Positions 3,268-36,900 of a DNA stretch of 64,000 nucleotides are shown piece after piece. Made by a program: the position numbers and the translations under genes. The stretch is taken from NCBI GenBank assembly GCA_040437565.1, contig JBDOQK010000001.1:248001-312000 (forward strand), given 5' to 3'. The DNA comes from Albugo candida (taxonomy: Eukaryota). Below the pieces are notes generated by a model. That model searched no databases. It was not told the DNA's origin and saw only the letters and a list, made by a program, of their open reading frames with translations. The number at the start of each line of letters is the position of its first letter. Position 1 is the stretch's first letter.

Positions 3268-5625
3268 TTTTTTATTATGATACTGTAAGCAGCACGTGCA
3301 GTATGTCCTCCGACGTCGCTTCTGCTCATCACTGGTACTGTTTCCATGTGCTGTGCTTTTAAGTCTGATCTTTAAAGAAAGCTGCCATATTCGCCACTCC
3401 TACTTGCGTATGCTTACAAAGGTTAACATTATTCATTATCAGCTTCTACTATAAGGATCGGTAAGCAGGAAGAAGCCAGGCATCTCGTGTTTTTCTACCG
3501 CCCTCGTACAGTTAATGGCTTCTGCACTCCGCCACGTACACACCTATCTTTAGATTCTCACTACAGATACGTCACTTCCCAAGTTTGTAATCCTACTCGC
3601 TTTATCAAATCACTCCTTCAAGCTCCTGGAATGGTTTGTTACATCTCCTAAGAAGAAAACATCGAGAACAATCCCATGATGAAATTCGTAGTGTAATCTT
3701 TCCAAATAGAGATTTTACCGAAAACAGATTGATGAAATAAATCGTCATACATACGATTCGGCAAGCGCGTTGATGATCAATGTGATGGGAACGGAGTTTC
3801 CTCTCATTCGAAGCCTTGGCTGAAAGTCGTATCAAAGAAAACCACACAAGGTTACCAATATCTTCCAATACTTGATGGTCGAGTACGCATCGCTTTAATG
3901 TAATCTTGTAGGCGAGCATCATGTTATTTAGCTACATTCTCAATCAGCTAATACTTATGCTTGTCGCAGTGCTACTGTTTCCAAATTATAGTCAGATTAG
4001 CGGTCCGAAAAACGTAGCTAGCATTTTATAGTATATTGTCAGTAGCAGAGATCCAATGTTCAAGGTTGATGCTATCTCATCTCAAGTGACACTTTGAAAC
4101 TCGTCAATCAGTACCTTTACTATCAAGTGTATCAATTGAAATTTATTTAGACTTTCATTTTGCTAATGAGATCTCTTGTAGCCGATTATTTTCGATGCAG
4201 CCGGTTGTGTCCGAAATTNNNNNNNNNNNNNNNNNNNNNNNNNNNNNNNNNNNNNNNNNNNNNNNNNNNNNNNNNNNNNNNNNNNNNNNNNNNNNNNNNN
4301 NNNNNNNNNNNNNNNNNNAGCTGGTGAGGTAGCAGACCAGCTAAACATCCAGAAATACCAGGATACCCTTCTTCAGCTTCTTGGGTGTGTCCAGCTTTGC
4401 AATCGAAAAGGTGTGATACTTTTATTTGCAACAGGTCATAAAATGATAAGACGGCAATCGTGGCTGGATTTTTTCTCTCTGAAATGCCTGCCTACTAGGC
4501 TACTTTTACTGTGCTTAAAATAAGTTAAGCTTTTCTTATGGTGTTCCTGCCACCAGCTAGAAGCGGACTTGAGAGCAGCAGACGCGGCGGTACGAAAGTA
4601 GGGGGTATGTTTGTAATCTCTATTTTTAGGGGGGTGTCCGTAGCAAAAATTGAGTGTATCCGCAGCAATTTCCTTTTTTTATTATGATACTGTAAGCAGC
4701 ACGTGCAGTATGTCCTCCGACGTCGCTTCTGCTCATCACTGGTACTGTTTCCATGTGCTGTGCTTTTAAGTCTGATCTTTAAAGAAAGCTGCCATATTCG
4801 CCACTCCTACTTGCGTATGCTTACAAAGGTTAACATTATTCATTATCAGCTTCTACTATAAGGATCGGTAAGCAGGAAGAAGCCAGGCATCTCGTGTTTT
4901 TCTACCGCCCTCGTACAGTTAATGGCTTCTGCACTCCGCCACGTACACACCTATCTTTAGATTCTCACTACAGATACGTCACTTCCCAAGTTTGTAATCC
5001 TACTCGCTTTATCAAATCACTCCTTCAAGCTCCTGGAATGGTTTGTTACATCTCCTAAGAAGAAAACATCGAGAACAATCCCATGATGAAATTCGTAGTG
5101 TAATCTTTCCAAATAGAGATTTTACCGAAAACAGATTGATGAAATAAATCGTCATACATACGATTCGGCAAGCGCGTTGATGATCAATGTGATGGGAACG
5201 GAGTTTCCTCTCATTCGAAGCCTTGGCTGAAAGTCGTATCAAAGAAAACCACACAAGGTTACCAATATCTTCCAATACTTGATGGTCGAGTACGCATCGC
5301 TTTAATGTAATCTTGTAGGCGAGCATCATGTTATTTAGCTACATTCTCAATCAGCTAATACTTATGCTTGTCGCAGTGCTACTGTTTCCAAATTATAGTC
5401 AGATTAGCGGTCCGAAAAACGTAGCTAGCATTTTATAGTATATTGTCAGTAGCAGAGATCCAATGTTCAAGGTTGATGCTATCTCATCTCAAGTGACACT
5501 TTGAAACTCGTCAATCAGTACCTTTACTATCAAGTGTATCAATTGAAATTTATTTAGACTTTCATTTTGCTAATGAGATCTCTTGTAGCCGATTATTTTC
5601 GATGCAGCCGGTTGTGTCCGAAATT
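2912..5625. repeat. Identical direct duplication across 100-N gap (2912-4218 = 4319-5625), probable contig-overlap artefact
   Basis: Offset 1407; the copies abut the gap 4219-4318 exactly. Confidence 0.9.
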
Positions 5626-8600
5626 CTTAAATCAACTGCGTGACTATACTTTGAATAAAATCAATAGAAGAGACATATGAATAGGGACGTCCGCAAGTAG
5701 TGGTGAAGAACTAGTACAGCATTGAGCTAAATAGCATTGCTAAGGCCTAAGCGATAGCTGGACATGTTTGGCACTTGTGATCCTGTCGGCTGAAACCTTT
5801 ACCCGATTACAGCCTACTAGTTGTGAGAAATTATCAATATCTTAACGCTGTCTCAGCTTTGATCTTAATGTCGCATGTGATCGATAACTTTGTTCAGTTG
5901 TTCGACGTGGCAGTTGATTGAGAAATTCAAGCAACCGCGACAAACTCCAGTTTTCAATTAGCGCACCAAAATGAAGATGGGTAAAACTGCCAATCTTCCA
6001 GGATTTCTCCAAAAGTGCGAGAAAGAGAATCTTGTTTTACCAGAGGTACCGATAGCTTCTATCATTTAAGTCTATAACCAGCTGAAAACCCCTTTTAGAA
6101 CCCTTATGAGGCAAGCATCGAAGCGGTCAACGCTCTTAAAGAGACCGGCGGCGACGAAGAGGTCTGATTTTGGCTCGCAGAGCTTACAATTCATATTTGA
6201 GAGAATTTGATAGGCGGCGATCGAGCAATTGAGATCCAAACTAGGCGGTAAGGATAGCCATAAACGTGGTCAAGATGGGTCGGAATTGGAACCCCATCAC
6301 GACCCCAAGCGTACAAGGCTCATGATGGAAGTGCGCGGACAACCTGCACGACGAAAAGAAAATCAAAAAATCGTGGATGCGTTTTTGGAATACGCTGAAG
6401 CTCAATTGGATCGTGGTCACACGGGGAAGGGATCGACGCACCTCCGTGCAGCAAAAGAAATACACGCTTCAGATATTGCACTTCATTCGGGCGCAGACGC
6501 TCGTCAGATCGGATTTATTGGAGATACGATGGCCCGACAAGTGGACCAGATTCTTGCTCATGGTAAAATTGAGGATGACACGGGTGAGTTGAATGTGAGC
6601 AAAGATTACCACCATAATCAGCCTCAGATCGTCCATGACATTCGTAATTCAAGTGCTAAACGTAAAGAGAATCAAAAGTTAGTAGATGTATTGGCTGATT
6701 TCGGTGAGCACGAGTTGGAATATGGAAACACCGGAAAAGGAACATCGCATCTGCGCGCTGCAAAAGAATTGCACAACACTGACGAAGTCATCACTTCTGG
6801 AGCTCAGGCTCGAGCTGTTGTCGGATTCATTGGTGATGTCATGGCCGATAAAATCGATCAAATTTTAGCGCACGGGAAAATCATACGGGATGACTCGGAC
6901 CAAGGATATCATCAGCATCGCCGGGTGGCAGGAGAGCCTGCACCCATCGTGCAAGATCTTCGTAATAATCCTGCCAAAAAAAAAGAGAATCAGCTAATTG
7001 TGGATAGGTTGACCGATTACGGTGAGAGTCATCTGACGTCGGGGCACCGTGGCACCGGAATTTCTCATTTACGTGCGGCAAGAGAAATCCGCAATGCGGA
7101 CACAGTGGTGCAGTCTGGAGCAAGTGCGAGGCAGATTGGTATGGTTGGAGGAAGAGTGGCGCAAAAAATCGATCAGATTTTGAGAGACGGCCACGCTGAT
7201 GACGATGAGGATTATCATCCCGGCGATGACGAAGAAGAGCCAGAGGGAACGGAGTACGGCAGCNNNNNNNNNNNNNNNNNNNNNNNNNNNNNNNNNNNNN
7301 NNNNNNNNNNNNNNNNNNNNNNNNNNNNNNNNNNNNNNNNNNNNNNNNNNNNNNNNNNNNNNNTTTCATTTTGCTAATGAGATCTCTTGTAGCCGATTAT
7401 TTTCGATGCAGCCGGTTGTGTCCGAAATTCTTAAATCAACTGCGTGACTATACTTTGAATAAAATCAATAGAAGAGACATATGAATAGGGACGTCCGCAA
7501 GTAGTGGTGAAGAACTAGTACAGCATTGAGCTAAATAGCATTGCTAAGGCCTAAGCGATAGCTGGACATGTTTGGCACTTGTGATCCTGTCGGCTGAAAC
7601 CTTTACCCGATTACAGCCTACTAGTTGTGAGAAATTATCAATATCTTAACGCTGTCTCAGCTTTGATCTTAATGTCGCATGTGATCGATAACTTTGTTCA
7701 GTTGTTCGACGTGGCAGTTGATTGAGAAATTCAAGCAACCGCGACAAACTCCAGTTTTCAATTAGCGCACCAAAATGAAGATGGGTAAAACTGCCAATCT
7801 TCCAGGATTTCTCCAAAAGTGCGAGAAAGAGAATCTTGTTTTACCAGAGGTACCGATAGCTTCTATCATTTAAGTCTATAACCAGCTGAAAACCCCTTTT
7901 AGAACCCTTATGAGGCAAGCATCGAAGCGGTCAACGCTCTTAAAGAGACCGGCGGCGACGAAGAGGTCTGATTTTGGCTCGCAGAGCTTACAATTCATAT
8001 TTGAGAGAATTTGATAGGCGGCGATCGAGCAATTGAGATCCAAACTAGGCGGTAAGGATAGCCATAAACGTGGTCAAGATGGGTCGGAATTGGAACCCCA
8101 TCACGACCCCAAGCGTACAAGGCTCATGATGGAAGTGCGCGGACAACCTGCACGACGAAAAGAAAATCAAAAAATCGTGGATGCGTTTTTGGAATACGCT
8201 GAAGCTCAATTGGATCGTGGTCACACGGGGAAGGGATCGACGCACCTCCGTGCAGCAAAAGAAATACACGCTTCAGATATTGCACTTCATTCGGGCGCAG
8301 ACGCTCGTCAGATCGGATTTATTGGAGATACGATGGCCCGACAAGTGGACCAGATTCTTGCTCATGGTAAAATTGAGGATGACACGGGTGAGTTGAATGT
8401 GAGCAAAGATTACCACCATAATCAGCCTCAGATCGTCCATGACATTCGTAATTCAAGTGCTAAACGTAAAGAGAATCAAAAGTTAGTAGATGTATTGGCT
8501 GATTTCGGTGAGCACGAGTTGGAATATGGAAACACCGGAAAAGGAACATCGCATCTGCGCGCTGCAAAAGAATTGCACAACACTGACGAAGTCATCACTT

Positions 8601-9067
8601 CTGGAGCTCAGGCTCGAGCTGTTGTCGGATTCATTGGTGATGTCATGGCCGATAAAATCGATCAAATTTTAGCGCACGGGAAAATCATACGGGATGACTC
8701 GGACCAAGGATATCATCAGCATCGCCGGGTGGCAGGAGAGCCTGCACCCATCGTGCAAGATCTTCGTAATAATCCTGCCAAAAAAAAAGAGAATCAGCTA
8801 ATTGTGGATAGGTTGACCGATTACGGTGAGAGTCATCTGACGTCGGGGCACCGTGGCACCGGAATTTCTCATTTACGTGCGGCAAGAGAAATCCGCAATG
8901 CGGACACAGTGGTGCAGTCTGGAGCAAGTGCGAGGCAGATTGGTATGGTTGGAGGAAGAGTGGCGCAAAAAATCGATCAGATTTTGAGAGACGGCCACGC
9001 TGATGACGATGAGGATTATCATCCCGGCGATGACGAAGAAGAGCCAGAGGGAACGGAGTACGGCAGC
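5560..9067. repeat. Identical direct duplication across gap (5560-7263 = 7364-9067); creates a false truncated copy of the HhH-repeat gene
   Basis: Offset 1804; gap 7264-7363. Confidence 0.9.
7749..7766 (+). promoter_or_regulatory. Oomycete Inr/FPR-like core promoter element
   Basis: ctccagttttcaattagc lies just upstream of ATG 7775 and resembles the oomycete YCAYTYY-n-CAWTT initiator. Confidence 0.4.
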
Positions 9068-9337
9068 TGGGAAAAAGGTCACATTCCTCCAATTGTCGAG
9101 GATATACGTTCGCGTTCAGCGGCGAAGAAGGAGAACCAGCGCTTGGTGGACGCTCTGACCGATTACGGGGAAGAGCAACTGAAACAGAAGCATACAGGGC
9201 GAGGGATCACATATCTGCGCGCTGCACGCGAGATTCAAAACACTAGTGAGGTTATCAAGAGTGGGCAGGATGCGAAGAAAGTGGCTGTTGTCGGTGACAA
9301 AGTCGCGGATTTTGTTGAGAATTGTTTAAAGCAATGA
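7775..9337 (+). CDS. About 485-aa protein: N-terminal UBA-like helical motif plus four tandem DNA polymerase beta-type 8-kDa (HhH) domains, with no polymerase core
   Basis: Exons 7775-7849, 7903-7965 and 8018-9337 are joined in frame by GT-AG introns. Four repeats of KENQ-x-IVD-x-L-x2-YGE...HLRAA-x-EI...IGFIG-x2-MA-x-KIDQIL-x-HGKI resemble the Pol X N-terminal domain (N-x-EI-x3-L...AYRKAA...LPGIG-x-KIA-x-KI-x-EIL-x-TGKL). Confidence 0.8.
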
Positions 9338-9470
9338 AGAGCGTTTTTGATTGGCTACAAATTGCATGGCTATTAAGACTGTAATTGTGTGCTTTAATTA
9401 ATGTCAAATATAGTGTGACGAGGCTCGACTTTACGCGTTGTGTACACTACTTTATGCGAATGCTACTACA

Positions 9471-10724
9471 ATGTCATATTTGCATCGATCGACGCACTTG
9501 AATAACTGGATATTCACGCAGGAGGAGCTGATTCTTGTTCGAGATTTACGTACAATCAAGTCGCAGACTACATCAAGCAAACATCATGCATCGAGATCTG
9601 GAGGTAATGCGGCAGAGAAGGAGGGCGCAGCGTTTTTAGGACGGCGACAAGCGCGATCATTTGCAGCACTCATTCCAAAGTCGACTCTAGCCATACCGAA
9701 TGTGAATGATTGGAATGACGAAACGGACTTAAAAAAAGCAAAGGATTTCGCTGTAGAAGCAAGTAAAGAAGCAGCGTTTGATACCTCACTCTTGCCAAGT
9801 CTGGAAGAAGAAAAAACTCTTGTCGAATTCTACGAGTCAAAAGTGCAGGAGAGTTGCACTCAGCTTTTTCGAACTTCAGAAAAAGTAAAATCGTCGGCCA
9901 TACAGCTTTTCAAGCGATTTTACTTATCGAATAGCGTGGCAGAGTTTCATCCCAAATATCTAGTCCCGACCGTTATCTACGTGGCAGCTAAAGTGGAAGA
10001 GCAGTATATTAGCGTGGAAACTATAGCGGAACATCTCAAAGTATATAAATCATTATGCATGCTCATATTTACGCTAAATGTGCGCTCTTAGATCGACCAT
10101 AAACATGTCATCGGTCATGAGATGATTCTATTGGAAGGCGTCCGATTTCATTTGATTATGTACCATCCATTTCGTCCTTTATTAGGCTTCGTTGACGATT
10201 TGCGACTGTATGCTAAAGCTAAAGGGAAGCAGCTACCACTCGAATTGCTACAAATTTTACATACAAAAGCAAGTGTTGTTGTCAATGAGTTTCTGCTTAC
10301 CGACGTACCGTTGCTGTATCACCCAGCACAGCTTGCGTTGGCCGCATTATTTGAAGCCATTGATCCAACTAACACAGACACGAGTCAAGTTTGCAGAGAG
10401 GATCTTATTGCTTGTATCCGCCTTCATGCCCCTGGGGGCGATTCTATCGTGAAGAGTATGGTAGACATTCTGGGCTCGATAGCAAAGCACCGCAAACGCA
10501 CTTTGCCAAGTACGGATGGCACAAACGATCAAGCCGACTTTGATCCAAAAGCAATCAAAGCAATTTATAAAAAGCTGAAGCCATTTCATGAAGTTTATGA
10601 GGAAGGAAATCCCGCTACTCAAGGGAAACATAAGACGAAAAAGTCAAAAGATGGAAAGGACGTGAAAAAACGAAAAAAATCAACCTCTAAAGATAATAAA
10701 AGTAGTAAGAAAGCGAAGAAATAG
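9471..10724 (+). CDS. CCNH: Cyclin H (CDK-activating kinase/TFIIH cyclin)
   Basis: STHLNNWIFT N-terminus; cyclin box FKRFYLSNSVAEFHPK...YVAAKVEE; EMILLEGVRFHLIMYHPFRPL; LLYHPAQLALAAL. Intron 10041-10091 joins the two ORFs in frame. Confidence 0.92.
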
Positions 10725-10770: not shown

Positions 10771-11193
10771 TTAGACTCTATCGCAATCTTCTTGCTGCTC
10801 TCTTGCAATTTTTTCGCCTACGAAACATGAGTTAGTCAACCGAATTATTTATCCCGATGACGTACGTAAGATTTCTACAATAGCGCGCTGTGTCCTCCGT
10901 TCTAATTTTTTCAGCATCGGTGCCAGATCACGTTCAATATCCCAATTCGCTCGTTTTGGAGCCAATAAGACGTCTTCGTCGTCGTCTTTATCTGTTTGAT
11001 CATTCTCTGTACTCACTACCTTCAAATCTTCTTTCGGCTCAATTCCGGCGTCGGCTTGTGATTTACAAGAGGATTTCTCATCTTCTACAGCCGTATCATC
11101 CTTTCCATCCACTGGTTTCTTTTCCTGTTTCTCCTTGCGCTCTTTTGCTTCACGAAGAAGACGCAAACGTTTTGCTCGTGGTAAATCCTCCAT
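10771..11193 (-). CDS. CCDC12: Cwf18/CCDC12 pre-mRNA splicing factor
   Basis: LAPKRANWDIERDLAPMLKKLERRTQRAIVEILR signature. A short 3' intron leads to the terminal exon REKIAREQQEDCDRV* (stop at 10771). Confidence 0.85.
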
Positions 11194-11396
11194 CACTACC
11201 CAAAAAAACCTCTAGTAACATATTTCTGACATATCTATATTTTTGGCTTAATCAGTATGGTCATCAAACATACCCTATTGTAATATATTCACTTCAAACT
11301 TGACGCTACGTGTGTATGTTAAACTCGAGCCGTAGGACACATCAATAAAGAATGAGCTCTGCGTTGATTGGACGTGATTATTGAGGGTCACTCGCA

Positions 11397-24942: not shown

Positions 24943-27900
24943 ATGCGATGTGTATTGCATCCAAAGCGCGTGCACAGCGCGATAACTCACTGTATCGATC
25001 GTACACACTGTCACGTTATCTATAAGCCGAATTCCTCTCTTTCTATCAGACTCAAAGACGCGTATCGATACGCTTCAAACACGAAAGAACTCAAACCAAT
25101 TATTGATAATGCACTCGATACCTCGCGCGTTCCTCAAACGTGGAAAATTATCAAACCAAATCGACAAAATGTCTCCAAAAAGCTATGGATTCTCAACAGC
25201 CAATTGGCAGCTCATCACAAAAACGGTCGAGTCAACGAAGCAATCGCGCGATTAGAAACGATGATCACAAAACACAAGTCGTACGACATGTCGAGTTTTC
25301 AAATTGTTCTATCACTGTGTAGTCAGCAACGGGATTACATCTCGGCTCTTACGGTCCACCAAAGGATGCATGAGCTCCATATACTACCGTCCTCGGCGCA
25401 GATATACTCGTACTTGATTAACAGCTGCATACAGCCCAATAGTAAGCAAAAAAGCATTGAAATAAACCCGCAATCCGATAAATTTGTGATGCAGGCGGAA
25501 AACTATTGGCAAGAAATGCTCGATCAAAATATCACTCCGACGCCTTTCGTCCTCAGATACTTACTTAAAGTATACAAGAGATACCCCGGTTATGCTACAA
25601 AGGCCTTGGAATTATTTCAGAGCTATTTTCTCGGGAAAGATGCTACTTTTCAAGCCAACTCGATAAACACTGCAATCATCATTGCGATTCTCTGTCGTGA
25701 ACCTCACGGTCGATATGGAACGGAAGCATTTAAAATTCTTCAAAATTATGCTCAGTATGCGTCAGAGAATCAAAAAGTGGGTAGAAAATATGATTCACTG
25801 GAGATTCAGACATACAATTACGTTTTAGACGCACTTCAGCGAGAATCGCAATGGTATCTCTTCCAAAATGTACTACAAATAAAAGCACAATTCGGTGCTC
25901 AAAATGATAAACGAACGGCGCAGCTATTGGAAAAGTATTATCAAAAAGACCCAACGTCTCTGCACGTTCCGCTTCGAAATTCGGAGAGTGTAAATTATCA
26001 GAAAAAACTGAAGGATTGGACCGCCGAATTGGAAAATATTGCTCAAGCCGATATAAAAGCACCATCCACGGTCAATGTACCCACACAAAGAGATTGGCAT
26101 TTTCTCTGCTCTCGTCAGCCAGCCATTCTTGTTCCAAAACTCGCTCATTATTTTATTCTTTTTCAAGCATATTGCCAGCGTCCTGATTGTCACTTGGCTC
26201 TGGGCGCTATGAAATGGAATACACAGAGTATGAATTCTCTTTTGTACGCTCATGCACGCCATGGAATGCTCGAAAAATCATTTCAACTCTTGGAGAAAAT
26301 GTGTCAATTGCAACAAGCAAATGAACAAAGCTTTGAGACTGTGCTTGCACTCTGCAGCCGTCGACAGGATTTGAAAACCGCTCGCAAAGTTTTCTCGCTT
26401 TTGGATGCGTCTTGTCCACCTATCGAGCCAACAATTCGCTGCTTTAACGCTCTTTTGCATTGTCATACAGCGTCACCAAAAAGTGTTGGAAATCGACTCG
26501 AAAATGCGTTAGAGATATTTTACCGCGTCGGCAATCGAGCCAATGTNNNNNNNNNNNNNNNNNNNNNNNNNNNNNNNNNNNNNNNNNNNNNNNNNNNNNN
26601 NNNNNNNNNNNNNNNNNNNNNNNNNNNNNNNNNNNNNNNNNNNNNNTGCACAGCGCGATAACTCACTGTATCGATCGTACACACTGTCACGTTATCTATA
26701 AGCCGAATTCCTCTCTTTCTATCAGACTCAAAGACGCGTATCGATACGCTTCAAACACGAAAGAACTCAAACCAATTATTGATAATGCACTCGATACCTC
26801 GCGCGTTCCTCAAACGTGGAAAATTATCAAACCAAATCGACAAAATGTCTCCAAAAAGCTATGGATTCTCAACAGCCAATTGGCAGCTCATCACAAAAAC
26901 GGTCGAGTCAACGAAGCAATCGCGCGATTAGAAACGATGATCACAAAACACAAGTCGTACGACATGTCGAGTTTTCAAATTGTTCTATCACTGTGTAGTC
27001 AGCAACGGGATTACATCTCGGCTCTTACGGTCCACCAAAGGATGCATGAGCTCCATATACTACCGTCCTCGGCGCAGATATACTCGTACTTGATTAACAG
27101 CTGCATACAGCCCAATAGTAAGCAAAAAAGCATTGAAATAAACCCGCAATCCGATAAATTTGTGATGCAGGCGGAAAACTATTGGCAAGAAATGCTCGAT
27201 CAAAATATCACTCCGACGCCTTTCGTCCTCAGATACTTACTTAAAGTATACAAGAGATACCCCGGTTATGCTACAAAGGCCTTGGAATTATTTCAGAGCT
27301 ATTTTCTCGGGAAAGATGCTACTTTTCAAGCCAACTCGATAAACACTGCAATCATCATTGCGATTCTCTGTCGTGAACCTCACGGTCGATATGGAACGGA
27401 AGCATTTAAAATTCTTCAAAATTATGCTCAGTATGCGTCAGAGAATCAAAAAGTGGGTAGAAAATATGATTCACTGGAGATTCAGACATACAATTACGTT
27501 TTAGACGCACTTCAGCGAGAATCGCAATGGTATCTCTTCCAAAATGTACTACAAATAAAAGCACAATTCGGTGCTCAAAATGATAAACGAACGGCGCAGC
27601 TATTGGAAAAGTATTATCAAAAAGACCCAACGTCTCTGCACGTTCCGCTTCGAAATTCGGAGAGTGTAAATTATCAGAAAAAACTGAAGGATTGGACCGC
27701 CGAATTGGAAAATATTGCTCAAGCCGATATAAAAGCACCATCCACGGTCAATGTACCCACACAAAGAGATTGGCATTTTCTCTGCTCTCGTCAGCCAGCC
27801 ATTCTTGTTCCAAAACTCGCTCATTATTTTATTCTTTTTCAAGCATATTGCCAGCGTCCTGATTGTCACTTGGCTCTGGGCGCTATGAAATGGAATACAC

Positions 27901-33951: not shown

Positions 33952-36900
33952 CGCCCCAAAAGCACATTGCTGCGTCTGAATTTGTAATAAAAGCCATTTT
34001 TGACAGTACAATACGCGACATGTACCGCCTTGGATAACTTACGCATCGGAAAGATTCATCATCGGCATTTTCCATAGTCAGTCCTTAACATCCGATATAC
34101 ACTCTATTTTGTTTCATTTCGGGTTCTTTATGTAATTCTATGATTGTATTGAGCAAAAGTTTGAATTTGGCGTCGTATGCGATCTACAGAAAGAGGTGAG
34201 CCATTCATGTATTTTGGCCTTTACGAAGCCAATCTCACCTTCGAGGTCTTCTTTCGTCGAATGCATATTTTCGAATTCCATGTTGAATGGGATTTTGGCG
34301 GTAGTCTATTTTCCCCAAGTGAGATTCAATGTACGATTCACAAAGGTTGGATGATAAGGCACTGACCTCAGCCTGAACTCGTCGGACAGACTGTAGAAAT
34401 GGATGGTTCAAAGCATCTGCGACACGTATCCTTGCATCGGGATTAAATAATAACATCTTTTGAAGTAAGTCCAAAGCTTCGGTAGGAGCCCCTGGATACA
34501 TTTCTTTGAGATCTCGCGGAGCTTTTTTTGGCAGCTGTTGTAAATACTCTCTCACTTCTGATGCATTTTCTATGTCAGTATCGTTGGGAGTACCGATCAC
34601 ACTGAAGATGACATTCAGTTGGTCCAACTTGTCCGAGTATGTTGTCGGGCGATCCGCACTGAGAGGGAAGCATGATCGACCCGGGAATAAAGGAGCTCGG
34701 TCTTGATAACGAGGGCAGCTCTCAGCTTGCATACTCAATAATTCTGCGAATATACACCCAACGCTCCATACATCGACTGCAAAGCTGTAATCTTGCAATA
34801 AAATAAGCTCAGGAGCCCTATACCATCGAGTCACGACGTGTTTGGTGAGTTGCCGGCGAACTGTTGGAGTATGCTGATGAGAGTATGCCGATGTTTCTGA
34901 TAACGGAATCGAAGATCGATTTGGAAGAAAATCACTCAGAGGGTAAAGATGTTTGCTCCGTTCTTCGCGAGTGCCTGTGACATCGACTACTCGGGCCAAT
35001 CCAAAATCACAAATCTGTAGTTCATACAACCACATCATTATCGCAAGGCACACTCAAGGATCGCAACTTTCGGTACCATTAACGTGCAATCTTCATTCAA
35101 AAGGATGTTGGCCGGTTTCAAGTCTCTATGAATTACGTTTGCTGAGTGTATATAGTTCAAGCCACAAAGTAGCTGGTAGAGGAAGACTTGTATATGCTTT
35201 ATTGTGAGGTACTGCGGACTCATAATAAGCTTTTGCAAATCGGTATCAAGAAACTCGAACACCAGATACAGATGATTGCCAAACATTTTGGAAACTGGAG
35301 GAAACACATCCAGCAGTCTGATCACCTGACCATGGCTGCACCAGTCAAATAGAAACTATGATTAAAACGAATCGGAGGGAAAAACGTAAAAGGCTCAGAT
35401 AACGTACTGTAAATGTTGAACGATATGGATCTCTCGATATATCCGCTTACAATCAAGACTCTGTCGAAAAACATCGATGACCTTCTTGATCGCAACTTTT
35501 TTGCCGCGGATGTTGTCGTACGCCTCGACCACTTGACCGTACGAGCCTTTACCCAATAAACGCACCAGACGGTATGAAGACGGTAGACTCCAATTACGAA
35601 ACTGCTCTGACAATAATGGAGAGATCCCAGGTGCCGATGGTGGTGCATTTTCTCTGAATTGAGTCCCATTTTTTGCAGGTGAGCTTACACGCTCATTATG
35701 TCCATCTAAAAAAGTCTCGTCCACCGCAGTCCGCTGACTTGCAACTGGCGTAGTCATACCAGAAACTTCCGGTACATCTGTTGACTCCACATCCATCAGT
35801 GTACTATTCAAGTCCGAAATCGTTTCTGAACTTATCGGAGTCGGAGGCATTTCATTTTGTGAGACATNNNNNNNNNNNNNNNNNNNNNNNNNNNNNNNNN
35901 NNNNNNNNNNNNNNNNNNNNNNNNNNNNNNNNNNNNNNNNNNNNNNNNNNNNNNNNNNNNNNNNNNNGAAATCAAGGCACATGAGAGAGCTTCCGTCCAG
36001 GAACGAGAAGCTACAGACACTGCTCAACTCAAAAAGTGGCATGAGAGCTTCAACGCGTGTGAATCGGAGCACAACGCTCTGACTGCTACGGAGAAGAAAA
36101 AGTGTGAGGATCTGAATGTAAATCTGACCGTGTTGGAGAAAGAATTTGTCCAAAGTGTCGCAAGCACCGCCAAAGTTCACGCGAATTCCCGCAGTTTGAC
36201 TTGTTCGATTCTTTCCCACGGACGCCAAACTGCTCAAAACCAGTGTGCCGAAGTCAAATCATTCGTCCAAAGTCGAACGGTGTGTGAGAGTGCAATTTCC
36301 AGCCATTTAGCCATTTCAGTGACTTATACTTCTCAATGATATTTGTATAGGTGGATGAGCCGAATGGGACGACGCCGACCAAGCGTATACCAGTAGACTT
36401 TCCAGCATTTGAACAGCTTGTAGTGACAGGACTTGACAACTCAGCAAGCGAATCGCTTGCAGCTGGGATCCCAAATGAGACTCGTTTGAACGATTCCAAT
36501 CTCTCTCAGGAGGCTCCAATGACAAACAAAGAGAACATTGATTCCGCAAATACGCCAAGGGAAATTGATACTGAGTCAACTTCATCGGTTGTCTCGCAGG
36601 AGAAAGCTGAAAGAGAGCCTCACAAAACCACAAAACGGAAATCGAGCGACACCGAGACCGGGAAAGAAACAAGTCTGCTTGTTGCGCCACAAAAGTATAA
36701 CAAAGCAACCAGATCTAGCAAAGCACGGAGCCTCCTTGCACATCGGAAGCGAGCTCGCCTGGCTGTGACAGAGTCATCTTCCGGACGTTCCAAGGCTCAA
36801 TAGCGCCCCAAAAGCACATTGCTGCGTCTGAATTTGTAATAAAAGCCATTTTTGACAGTACAATACGCGACATGTACCGCCTTGGATAACTTACGCATCG

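What the first reader, a model, noticed from the sequence alone, without database searches (positions are those of the whole stretch)
7775..9337. Polymerase-less protein of four tandem Pol-beta 8-kDa (dRP-lyase/HhH) domains behind a UBA-like cap
Seen: four repeats with a core of about 75 aa resembling the Pol X N-terminal domain, joined by His/Asp-rich linkers, with no fingers, palm, thumb or nuclease domain. Two small upstream exons missed by the ORF track add EASIEAVNALKETGGDEEAAIEQLRSK, which resembles UBA/EF-Ts-N three-helix motifs. The lysine equivalent to the Pol-beta Schiff-base nucleophile (IAEKIDE) is kept in repeats 2 and 3 (MADKIDQ, VAQKIDQ) and replaced in repeats 1 and 4; the YRKAA helix reads HLRAA in three repeats. 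Established: this domain normally occurs once, attached to Pol X or Mus81. Inference: a stand-alone multivalent ssDNA/gap/abasic-site binder or lyase, or a DNA-packaging/protection protein, possibly recruited through ubiquitin.
Basis: partly seen in the sequence, partly recalled or inferred. Interest (0 to 1): 0.75.

Follow-up and report, generated by a model that had tools for sequence, protein, structure and literature searches.

The report
Four-lyase-domain DNA-repair-like protein, no polymerase
A white-rust oomycete gene encodes a conserved but unstudied protein made of four copies of the small DNA-end-binding domain of repair polymerase beta, with no polymerase attached, so it probably binds or trims broken DNA.

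Summary
Window 7775-9337 (+) is a three-exon gene of 485 codons. It differs at 4 residues from an annotated Albugo candida protein. Pfam finds four HHH_8 (Pol X 8-kDa) domains and no catalytic domain. The predicted folds superpose on the Pol beta 8-kDa domain at 1.3-2.0 A.

The Schiff-base lysine (Pol beta K72) is kept in repeat 2 (48 of 49 orthologues) and repeat 3 (49 of 49). It is replaced by Gln in repeat 1 and by Phe/Tyr in repeat 4.

The family is conserved across oomycetes. Two shorter paralogue classes share its three-helix N-terminal cap. Polymerase-less tandem HHH_8 proteins also occur in giant viruses.

The UBA/ubiquitin idea is not supported. The upstream partial copy (5560-7263) is an unmerged contig overlap at an N gap, not a second gene.

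Most likely function, inferred only: a nuclear binder of nicks, gaps or abasic sites at several sites at once, with possible dRP/AP lyase activity in repeats 2 and 3. I found no paper on the family. Interest is moderate.

The parts
7627..7701 (+). 5'-UTR intron (75 nt, GT..AG)
   Evidence: Joint 7626->7702 in contigs of runs X16 and X17 (RNA by guess). It is absent from DNA run X2.
7775..7849 (+). Coding exon 1 (25 codons): start codon and first helix of the cap
   Evidence: P0002 starts at the second Met, 7781.
7850..7902 (+). Intron 1 (53 nt, GT..AG)
   Evidence: The joint is seen in one X16 contig (28 letters on the shorter side). Unspliced contigs are also present in X16 and X17.
7903..7965 (+). 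Coding exon 2 (21 codons): second helix of the cap
   Evidence: tblastn of P0002 residues 24-44, 100% identity.
7966..8017 (+). Intron 2 (52 nt, GT..AG)
   Evidence: agreement with P0002 and conservation across the junction. No RNA contig shows the joint. X16 and X17 contigs retain the intron, and the X17 contigs break exactly at 7966.
8018..9337 (+). Coding exon 3 (439 codons plus TGA)
   Evidence: P0001.
7775..8053 (+). N-terminal cap, residues 1-58 (spliced): a three-helix bundle shared with the short paralogues
   Evidence: AF2 helices at P0002 residues 7-16, 25-38 and 43-54, pLDDT 78. A cap HMM also hits the S- and X-class paralogues. Alignment A3.
8054..8155 (+). Basic linker, residues 59-92, with two KR clusters that look like a nuclear localisation signal
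   Evidence: Net charge +2, pI 9.7. Low pLDDT at P0002 residues 56-73. The NLS reading is inference from the sequence.
8156..8377 (+). HHH_8 repeat 1 (residues 93-166); the K72 position is Gln
   Evidence: Gln in 46 of 49 orthologues.
8465..8689 (+). HHH_8 repeat 2 (residues 196-270); the K72-equivalent Lys259 is codon 8654-8656
   Evidence: Lys in 48 of 49 orthologues.
8783..9001 (+). HHH_8 repeat 3 (residues 302-374); the K72-equivalent Lys364 is codon 8969-8971
   Evidence: Lys in 49 of 49 orthologues.
9002..9124 (+). Acidic linker 3 (residues 375-415), net charge -12, with a conserved GHAD(S/D)DEDY stretch
   Evidence: Low pLDDT at P0002 residues 376-398.
9125..9334 (+). HHH_8 repeat 4 (residues 416-485); the K72 position is Phe
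   Evidence: Phe or Tyr in 43 of 49 orthologues and never Lys.
5560..7263 (+). Artefactual exact copy of 7364-9067. It holds a truncated duplicate of the gene that runs into the N gap at 7264-7363.
   Evidence: Identical over 1704 nt, and both copies abut the gap. The same pattern occurs at 10 of 15 gaps.

Best explanation
Shown:
- This is one real gene of Albugo candida. It encodes a 485-residue protein with a small three-helix cap, a basic NLS-like linker, and four Pol X 8-kDa-type (HHH_8, helix-hairpin-helix) domains joined by flexible linkers, one of them strongly acidic.
- There is no polymerase or nuclease domain.
- It belongs to a family conserved across oomycetes. The four repeats are positionally orthologous between species, so the array is old and each position is under its own constraint.

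Inferred mechanism:
- The protein enters the nucleus and uses its HHH_8 modules as Pol beta and Pol lambda use theirs: to grip the 5'-phosphate side of nicks, gaps or abasic/dRP sites through the hairpin backbone contacts and a conserved basic/glycine pocket (the GHTGKG..HLRAA signature).
- With four modules on flexible tethers it could hold several lesions or DNA ends at once.
- Repeats 2 and 3 keep the lysine that forms the Schiff base in Pol beta. They are the candidates for dRP/AP-lyase chemistry.
- Repeats 1 and 4 have lost that lysine in a conserved way and would bind only.
- The cap, shared with two shorter paralogues, would dock an as yet unknown partner.
For: Identity and architecture:
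- Pfam HHH_8 x4, E 2.8e-38, and nothing catalytic.
- AF2 mean pLDDT 79.6. Foldseek matches the Pol beta 8-kDa domain at rmsd 1.3-2.0 A over 69-76 columns, 29-31% identity, probability 1.00, and TM 0.86 to the 71-residue dRP-lyase design 6h5h.
- A profile of the four repeats hits Pol beta at E 7e-7 to 5e-6, TdT at about 5e-4 and Pol lambda at 1e-3 to 0.014.

Conservation in 49 four-repeat orthologues:
- K72 equivalent: Q 46/49 in repeat 1, K 48/49 in repeat 2, K 49/49 in repeat 3, F/Y 43/49 in repeat 4.
- K35 equivalent: K or R in 47, 48, 48 and 45 of 49.
- K41 equivalent: R in 49/49 in every repeat.
- Hairpin Gly (G66 equivalent): 48-49/49 in every repeat.

Evolution and relatives:
- Repeats cluster by position in a quick tree of a chosen subset (SH-aLRT 96, 93, 97, 94).
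- No long fused relative: the 21 best library proteins are 115-559 aa.
- An Atlas cluster label reports diatom proteins that combine zf-PARP (49% of members) with HHH_8. This is a lead only.

Established knowledge:
- Lys72 is the critical lyase residue of Pol beta (PMC6616571, passages seen).
- A tandem (HhH)2 array in topoisomerase V carries AP/dRP lyase sites (PMC3592480, abstract seen).
Against: - There is no experimental datum on any family member.
- The domains are not basic. Net charges are -1, -3, +3 and +2, and the whole protein has pI about 6.0. By my recollection the Pol beta 8-kDa domain is strongly basic.
- No repeat keeps all four basic pocket positions. K68 is Val in repeat 2 (41/49). 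K60 is mostly Ser or Thr in repeat 3. The H34 position is Gly in all four repeats.
- A conserved lysine may serve phosphate binding only.
- The nuclear localisation signal is read by eye.
- Contigs of two RNA-guess runs retain intron 2, which would end the frame after exon 2. How much cap-bearing mRNA is made is therefore unknown.
Confidence: 0.42

Rival explanations
1. It is a non-catalytic architectural or scaffold DNA-binding protein. The four helix-hairpin-helix modules bind the DNA backbone without sequence or lesion preference. The conserved acidic, aromatic-containing linker 3 contacts histones or other basic proteins. The lysines in repeats 2 and 3 only bind phosphate.
For: - Beads-on-a-string model with pTM 0.33 and disordered linkers.
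- Linker 3 has net charge -12 and a conserved GHAD(S/D)DEDY stretch.
- Every repeat has lost at least one basic pocket residue.
- TdT and Pol mu carry the same domain without lyase activity (recalled, not from a call).
Against: - The K72-equivalent Lys is fixed at 48/49 and 49/49 in exactly two positions. The other two positions fix different residues. This looks like more than general phosphate contact.
- The domains are near neutral, which is poor for a general DNA coat.
Confidence: 0.28
2. It is not a DNA binder. The HHH_8 modules have been re-used as protein-binding or small-ligand modules (for example for a phosphorylated partner, poly(ADP-ribose) or a nucleotide), and the array acts as an adaptor.
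For: - Near-neutral or acidic domains and a whole-protein pI of about 6.
- The family-specific, almost invariant GHTGKG..HLRAA signature differs from Pol beta at the same place.
- The MUS81 N-terminal HhH domain is reported to bind a protein partner (recalled, not from a call).
Against: - The hairpin glycine and the K35, K41 and K72 equivalents that contact DNA in Pol beta are the most conserved positions.
- The nearest sequence and fold relatives are all DNA polymerases.
Confidence: 0.15
3. One reading: the N-terminal cap is a UBA domain that recruits the protein through ubiquitin.
For: - The cap folds as a three-helix bundle.
- Many of the weak fold hits are UBA, CUE or EF-Ts N-terminal domains (TM 0.45-0.6; VIA Z 4.0-5.5).
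- The Albugo cap gives a weak Pfam UBA hit over 18 residues (E 0.012-0.2).
Against: - The hit is below the Pfam cut-off (12-15.9 against 22.4 bits).
- Only 2 of 16 caps give any UBA hit.
- A cap profile finds no UBA chain in the PDB; the best hits are DnaK lid, RFC and RPN8 at E >= 0.2.
- No Foldseek E is below 0.8. VIA Z is below 8 and tied with GluRS, Sec14 and RFC helices.
- The helix 1-2 loop is LP-centred, with an invariant Pro. It is not the hydrophobic Met-Gly-Phe/Tyr type of loop that I recall for UBA.
Confidence: 0.07
4. The locus holds a true tandem duplication of the gene (a second, partial copy at 5975-7263), or the gene is a pseudogene.
For: - Two exact copies are present in the window.
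- RNA-guess contigs retain introns.
Against: - The copies are 100% identical over 1704 nt. One ends and the other starts exactly at the 100-N gap.
- 10 of 15 gaps show the same overlap.
- The frame is open, conserved at 45-61% identity across oomycetes, and covered by RNA-guess contigs.
Confidence: 0.03

Closest known systems
N-terminal 8-kDa (dRP lyase) domain of DNA polymerases beta and lambda (Pfam HHH_8, PF14716)
   Same: - Same Pfam family and same five-helix fold with a helix-hairpin-helix.
- The hairpin Gly and the equivalents of K35 and K41 are kept in all repeats.
- The Schiff-base Lys72 equivalent is kept in repeats 2 and 3.
   Different: - Four copies in tandem, with no fingers, palm or thumb.
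- Each repeat carries an extra N-terminal helix and the family signature GHTGKG..HLRAA.
- The domains are near neutral rather than basic.
- The H34 equivalent is Gly. Repeats 1 and 4 lack the nucleophile.
C-terminal array of 12 (HhH)2 domains of Methanopyrus topoisomerase V
   Same: It is a tandem array of helix-hairpin-helix domains, some of which carry AP/dRP lyase sites with a lysine nucleophile (PMC3592480, abstract seen). It is the closest analogue in how the oomycete protein may work.
   Different: - No detectable sequence relation. Topo V is not among the 40 chains listed or the 60 of 70 chains listed.
- It is attached to a topoisomerase domain, and it is archaeal.
Short oomycete/diatom paralogues: cap plus one HHH_8. 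S class is about 200 aa (for example Albugo candida P0243). X class is about 210-240 aa (for example Pythium oligandrum P0083).
   Same: - Same cap, same linker type and same HHH_8, with the K72 equivalent kept: S class 40/45, X class 10/10.
- By locus-tag numbers the X-class gene lies 2 genes from the four-repeat gene in Pythium and about 10 genes away in Phytophthora.
   Different: - One (rarely two) repeats instead of four.
- S class is also named in Saprolegnia, Aphanomyces and Achlya, whereas no named four-repeat hit comes from those genera.
- S class lacks the HLRAA signature.
Polymerase-less multi-HHH_8 proteins of giant viruses (Nucleocytoviricota), for example 'Helix-hairpin-helix domain protein' of Marseillevirus LCMAC201
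   Same: They carry three to four HHH_8 domains in tandem without catalytic domains. P0118, P0124, P0125, P0142, P0148 and P0175 have 3-4 stretches. Atlas clusters of 290-447 aa are 100% viral. BFVD hits reach E 1.8e-6 to 7.6e-4.
   Different: - No cap.
- Their repeats group apart from the oomycete four-repeat family in the quick tree.
- The lysine-rich GIGKGIAKKIDEF type is closer to Pol beta.
- They also appear to be uncharacterised.
MUS81 N-terminal HhH domain (source of the UniRef name 'Crossover junction endonuclease MUS81-like HHH domain-containing protein')
   Same: Same Pfam family. There is a weak match to PDB 7bu5 (E 0.83).
   Different: - No ERCC4 nuclease domain.
- Pol beta, TdT and Pol lambda all score far better than MUS81.
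- The database name reflects the Pfam/InterPro label, not orthology.

Membership tests
HHH_8 / Pol X 8-kDa domain (PF14716) | Matches the Pfam model above its gathering score | tested here: met
   130.6 bits against a cut-off of 30, E 2.8e-38, four stretches. The same holds for orthologues.
HHH_8 / Pol X 8-kDa domain (PF14716) | Five-helix fold with a helix-hairpin-helix that superposes on the Pol beta 8-kDa domain | tested here: met
   Foldseek rmsd 1.3-2.0 A over 69-76 columns, probability 1.00, TM 0.86 to 6h5h. E-values are only 0.04-0.2 because the match is short.
HHH_8 / Pol X 8-kDa domain (PF14716) | Conserved hairpin glycine (Pol beta G66 position) | tested here: met
   Gly in 49, 49, 48 and 48 of 49 orthologues for repeats 1-4.
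dRP lyase active site of Pol beta/lambda | Schiff-base lysine (Pol beta K72) | tested here: inconclusive
   Present in repeats 2 and 3 (48/49, 49/49). Absent in repeat 1 (Gln 46/49) and repeat 4 (Phe/Tyr 43/49). Presence of the residue does not show activity.
dRP lyase active site of Pol beta/lambda | Complete basic 5'-phosphate pocket (K35, K60, K68 with K72; residue list recalled) | tested here: not met
   No repeat keeps all four. The consensus residues, given as K35/K60/K68/K72 equivalents, are: repeat 1 K,R,K,Q; repeat 2 K,R,V,K; repeat 3 K,S,R,K; repeat 4 R,K,K,F.
dRP lyase active site of Pol beta/lambda | Lyase activity or a NaBH4-trappable intermediate | not testable with these tools
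   Biochemical assay needed.
Family X DNA polymerase | Fingers, palm and thumb domains with catalytic aspartates | tested here: not met
   No PF10391, PF14792 or PF14791 hit, even at E <= 10. The stop codon is at 9335-9337 and the next gene, cyclin H, starts at 9471. For comparison, 35 of 55 more distant representatives do carry these domains.
MUS81 endonuclease | C-terminal ERCC4 nuclease domain | tested here: not met
   Not found by Pfam.
UBA / TS-N domain (PF00627) | Matches the Pfam model above its gathering score | tested here: not met
   12.0 bits (whole protein) and 15.9 bits (cap alone) against 22.4, over residues 31-48 only. 2 of 16 caps give any hit.
UBA / TS-N domain (PF00627) | Compact three-helix UBA fold | tested here: inconclusive
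   The three-helix model has pLDDT 78. UBA, CUE and EF-Ts hits have TM 0.45-0.6 at E >= 0.8 and Z 4.0-5.5, tied with unrelated helical pieces.
UBA / TS-N domain (PF00627) | Ubiquitin binding | not testable with these tools
   No ubiquitin test was made.

The most novel reading that the evidence does not exclude
Oomycetes (and, with one-copy forms, diatoms) have separated the Pol X lyase/5'-phosphate-binding module from the polymerase. They turned it into a family of free-standing repair factors that share a dedicated docking cap. The four-repeat member would be a multi-site dRP/AP lyase and break-tethering protein. Repeats 2 and 3 would be catalytic and repeats 1 and 4 would be binding-only. 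It would supply or concentrate end-cleaning activity at clustered lesions. Giant viruses would have arrived at, or acquired, the same solution.
Probability: 0.2. Interest if true: 0.7.

Novelty: new variant of a known kind. Interest (0 to 1): 0.5.

Why it matters
The 8-kDa domain is one of the best-studied DNA-repair modules, but it is known almost only as an appendage of a polymerase. Here it forms a conserved, polymerase-less array. Two positions keep the catalytic lysine and two have lost it in a fixed way. That gives a clean natural experiment on what the module does alone: end recognition, lyase chemistry or tethering.

The family with its cap is restricted, as far as these searches show, to oomycetes, with one-copy relatives in diatoms. 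It may therefore mark a lineage-specific branch of base-excision or strand-break repair in a group that includes major plant pathogens.

The predictions can be tested directly with recombinant protein. For annotation, the database names ('MUS81-like', 'DNA polymerase beta', 'PolX') are misleading.

Tried and rejected
- Link to the Phytophthora sojae effector PsCRN108, found by a paper search. The passages I read describe one generic HhH motif in a secreted CRN effector compared with MutY, OGG1 and EndoIII (PMC4695088). Our protein has no signal-peptide-like N-terminus and a different domain, so I dropped the link.
- UBA membership: see the membership test.
- Other weak Pfam hits are all below their cut-offs for the Albugo protein and overlap the HHH_8 repeats or linkers: TPR_14, DUF7124, YtfJ, Arginosuc_synth, Cauli_DNA-bind. 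I did not pursue them. DUF7124 passes its cut-off only in Pythium P0005 (39.8 against 27 bits), over repeat 3 plus the acidic linker.
- Whole-genome search of the window's own assembly: no genome is held. I therefore could not test whether Albugo has a true Pol X, or an X-class paralogue elsewhere.
- Literature. Eight searches used domain names, UniRef names, six locus tags and repair terms. None found a paper on this family. Subscription journals and supplements were not covered.
- The look-up of sequencing runs: no RNA holder listed. Runs X16-X18 are RNA only by guess.
- Read laying: no joint was listed for intron 2. X18 left parts of the gene uncovered.
- Earlier findings of this scan: nothing near the place or by sequence. 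A look-up by words failed on a badly formed word.
- The careful tree did not finish. Only the quick tree (92 chosen domain rows, 85 columns, many open forks) is used. Deep relations among the L, X, S, viral and Pol X domains are not resolved.


Full report
**What is in the sequence**

The window is eukaryotic, with short GT..AG introns. The long ORF at 8033-9337 and its N-terminal extension by two small exons give a 485-codon reading frame:
- exon 1: 7775-7849
- exon 2: 7903-7965
- exon 3: 8018-9337

The best database hit is 'unnamed protein product [Albugo candida]' (P0002, 483 aa, 99% identity). From its third residue my spliced model equals P0002 except at 4 residues. One of these is W against R, caused by T at 9068. 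All three runs that cover this base (X16, X17, X2) read C there, which gives Arg. It is also matched by conservation of the residues that span both junctions in Pythium, Lagenidium and Phytophthora orthologues.

**RNA evidence is mixed**

No run that holds the stretch is on record as RNA. Three are RNA only by guess. I laid those three together with DNA run X2.
- Two of them (X16, X17) show a 5'-UTR intron at 7627-7701. DNA run X2 does not.
- One X16 contig shows the intron-1 joint.
- No listed contig shows the intron-2 joint. X16 (7901-9351) and X17 (7966-9319) contigs run through intron 2, and an X17 contig also retains intron 1.
- The X17 contigs break exactly at 7966. That fits a branch between spliced and unspliced forms but does not prove one.

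Retention of either intron would end the frame within a few codons. The cap-bearing product thus rests on homology and annotation plus one junction contig.

Positions 5560-7263 are identical, base for base, to 7364-9067. The first copy ends, and the second begins, exactly at the 100-N gap (7264-7363). The same 'sequence after the gap repeats the sequence that ends at the gap' pattern holds at 10 of the 15 gaps in this window. These are overlapping contigs joined with Ns instead of being merged. The truncated second copy of the gene (5975-7263) is therefore not real. The window holds no other HHH_8 gene (tblastn with L-, X- and S-class queries).

**Domain identity**

- Pfam finds HHH_8 (PF14716) four times (E 2.8e-38, 130.6 bits, cut-off 30). 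It finds no polymerase, nuclease or other family above cut-off.
- The repeats are 41-55% identical to each other.
- AlphaFold2 with a 20-sequence alignment gives mean pLDDT 79.6 and pTM 0.33. The picture is four confident helical domains, a three-helix N-terminal domain and three disordered linkers, like beads on a string.
- Foldseek against the PDB returns the Pol beta 8-kDa domain at rmsd 1.3-2.0 A over 69-76 columns, with 29-31% identity and probability 1.00. TM is 0.86 to the 71-residue designed dRP-lyase domain 6h5h. E-values are only 0.04-0.2 because one short domain of a 483-residue query is matched.
- A profile of the four repeats hits Pol beta chains at E 7e-7 to 5e-6, TdT at about 5e-4 and Pol lambda at 1e-3 to 0.014. 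MUS81 is far weaker (E 0.83). The UniRef name 'MUS81-like HHH domain-containing protein' is thus a label of the Pfam/InterPro entry, not a statement of orthology.

**Active-site positions**

The HMMER alignment to full-length Pol beta chains (positions 12-83) combined with the repeat alignment gives these equivalents in repeats 1-4:

| Pol beta residue | Repeat 1 | Repeat 2 | Repeat 3 | Repeat 4 |
|---|---|---|---|---|
| K72 | Q | K | K | F |
| K68 | T | V | R | K |
| K60 | R | R | R | K |
| K35 | K | K | T | R |
| Y39 | H | H | H | Y |
| H34 | G | G | G | G |

I then looked at 49 family members that have exactly four full repeats. These came from the hits. I left out the window's own two ORF forms and every hit with another repeat count.
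- The pattern is fixed by position. K72 is Gln in 46/49 for repeat 1, Lys in 48/49 for repeat 2, Lys in 49/49 for repeat 3, and Phe or Tyr in 43/49 (never Lys) for repeat 4.
- The K41 equivalent is Arg in 49/49 in all four repeats.
- The K35 equivalent is Lys or Arg in 45-48 of 49.
- The hairpin Gly is kept in 48-49 of 49.
- No repeat keeps all four basic pocket residues. For example, K68 is Val in 41/49 for repeat 2.

That Lys72 is the critical lyase residue is stated in PMC6616571 (passages seen). [quoted passage not shown]

**The family and its relatives**

*Four-repeat class (L).* The word-index search gave 66 hits at E <= 0.001 among 8000 scored candidates. Every hit that carries an organism name is an oomycete: Albugo, Pythium, Lagenidium, Globisporangium, Phytophthora, Peronospora, Hyaloperonospora, Peronosclerospora or Nothophytophthora. 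Typical length is 420-540 aa with four HHH_8 domains. Two members (P0004, P0013) carry an extra fifth repeat.

*Exhaustive profile search.* It found 264 proteins at E <= 1e-3, 62 at <= 1e-10 and 21 at <= 1e-30. Those 21 are 115-559 aa long, so no close relative is fused to a large catalytic domain.

*More distant representatives.* I scanned 55 of them with Pfam:
- 35 are true Pol X enzymes with palm, thumb or fingers domains.
- 20 have HHH_8 only.
- 6 of those 20 carry 3-4 HHH_8 stretches.

Atlas look-alikes of one of the six (P0124) are clusters of 290-447 aa proteins that are 100% viral, mostly Nucleocytoviricota. The BFVD fold search of my model gives three viral multi-domain hits at E 1.8e-6 to 7.6e-4. 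One is a 'Helix-hairpin-helix domain protein' of Marseillevirus LCMAC201.

*Two shorter oomycete paralogue classes share the cap* (a cap HMM hits them at 1e-5 to 1e-10).
- S class, about 200 aa with one HHH_8. It is present in Albugo candida itself (P0243) and also in Saprolegnia, Aphanomyces and Achlya. An Atlas cluster of similar proteins is labelled mostly Bacillariophyta.
- X class, about 210-240 aa with one HHH_8, or two in some unnamed records. It is named in Pythium, Globisporangium and Phytophthora.

By locus-tag numbers and equal contig lengths, the X gene lies two genes from the L gene in Pythium oligandrum (006618 and 006620) and in two Pythium insidiosum assemblies. It lies about ten genes away in two Phytophthora species. 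This is an inference from tags, not from sequence.

*Quick tree.* I built a tree of 92 domain rows from proteins I chose (10 L, 8 S, 5 X, 25 others). It had 85 columns and many open forks, and the careful search did not finish.
- The L repeats group by position (SH-aLRT 96, 93, 97, 94).
- The X domains are their sister (94).
- The S domains and the viral ones fall elsewhere.

So the four-repeat array predates the split of Albugo, Pythium and Phytophthora. It probably grew from an X-like cap-plus-one-domain gene. Deeper relations are not resolved.

**The cap**

Residues 1-58 fold into three helices (P0002 residues 7-16, 25-38 and 43-54), both in the whole-protein model and when predicted alone with 16 diverse caps (pLDDT 78, pTM 0.59).
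- Foldseek gives no hit below E 0.8. Many of the weak hits are UBA, NAC-UBA or EF-Ts N-terminal domains, with TM 0.45-0.6.
- The Foldseek-independent search gives Z 4-6. EF-Ts, Ddi1 UBA and Tollip CUE are tied with GluRS, Sec14 and RFC helical pieces. The tool's own note says Z below 8 may reflect only a common arrangement.
- By sequence, Pfam UBA reaches 12-15.9 bits against 22.4, over 18 residues. Only 2 of 16 caps hit it at all.
- A cap profile finds no UBA chain in the PDB.

The cap is a real, conserved small helical domain, most likely a docking module. Calling it UBA, or inferring ubiquitin recruitment, is not justified.

**How it most likely works (inference)**

A basic linker with two KR clusters follows the cap (pI 9.7). 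By eye it looks like a bipartite nuclear localisation signal.

Each HHH_8 module keeps the hairpin and the K35 and K41 equivalents. An almost invariant glycine-rich turn (GHTGKG) sits at the start of the helix that carries HLRAA. This is the place where Pol beta binds the 5'-phosphate. I therefore favour a nuclear protein that binds 5'-phosphorylated nicks or gaps, or abasic/dRP sites, at up to four places at once. Repeats 2 and 3 would be candidate lyase sites, and repeats 1 and 4 would be binding-only modules.

The closest working analogue is the tandem (HhH)2 array of topoisomerase V, which carries AP/dRP lyase sites (PMC3592480, abstract seen). It shows no sequence relation to this protein.

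Against this reading:
- The domains are near neutral (net -1, -3, +3, +2), linker 3 is very acidic (-12) and the whole protein has pI about 6.0.
- No repeat has the full basic pocket.
- Nothing has been measured.

Two alternatives cannot be excluded: a non-catalytic scaffold, or a re-use of the fold for protein or ligand binding.

**Novelty and verdict**

The domain is known, and databases already tag these proteins with HHH_8. Eight full-text searches found no study of the family. Subscription journals and supplements were not searched.

I see no sign in print of the following points:
- a conserved four-copy, polymerase-less architecture;
- the fixed split into lysine-bearing and lysine-less positions;
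- the shared cap across three paralogue classes;
- the parallel in giant viruses.

I file this as a new variant of a known kind, of moderate interest. It is an ordinary-looking but testable lead for repair biochemistry, not a new kind of system.

Noticed in passing
window, all 15 N gaps (for example 4219-4318, 7264-7363, 26547-26646, 35868-35967): At 10 of 15 100-N gaps, the sequence right after the gap exactly repeats 133-2752 nt that end at the gap. These are unmerged contig overlaps. Genes near gaps appear duplicated or truncated, for example the identical ORFs at 3605-3922 and 5012-5329.
   Followed up: yes
window 9068: The window has T (Trp codon), while contigs of three runs (X16, X17, X2) have C (Arg), as does P0002. 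The base is the first one after the duplicated block, so it is a strain difference or an assembly error.
   Followed up: partly
window 5506-5588 (equivalent to the stretch up to 7392): An X16 contig that lies on 7393-7502 carries 62 loose letters before 7393. The 30 shown match 5506-5535. This would be a further upstream GT..AG intron (5536-5588, 53 nt) and a further 5' exon of this or another transcript. It depends on the 30 letters shown being the ones next to the joint.
   Followed up: partly
window 9471-10724 (+): A cyclin H-like gene with an intron near 10047-10121. Cyclin_C_2 scores E 3.1e-11, and Cyclin_N only E 5.9e-4, below its cut-off.
   Followed up: partly
window 10849-11196 (-): An ORF with a cwf18 pre-mRNA splicing factor domain (E 2.3e-11), convergent with cyclin H.
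   Followed up: no
P0121 (library representative, 420 aa): A Pol X with two HHH_8 domains in tandem ahead of fingers, palm and thumb. P0176, P0184 and P0199 are Pol X enzymes with an N-terminal WWE domain. P0170 is a Pol X fused to PNK3P phosphatase.
   Followed up: no
P0017 (Phytophthora boehmeriae, 726 aa) and P0066 (Nothophytophthora, 409 aa, partial): These longer database entries look like merged gene models. P0017 holds a fifth HHH_8 and a second cap-like stretch before the normal four-repeat protein. P0066 joins RCC1 repeats to HHH_8 in a partial record.
   Followed up: no
Atlas cluster (about 466 aa, mostly Bacillariophyta): A cluster is labelled 'PARP-type domain-containing protein', with HHH_8 in 85% of members and zf-PARP in 49%. 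This is a possible natural fusion of a nick sensor with a stand-alone 8-kDa domain in diatoms.
   Followed up: no
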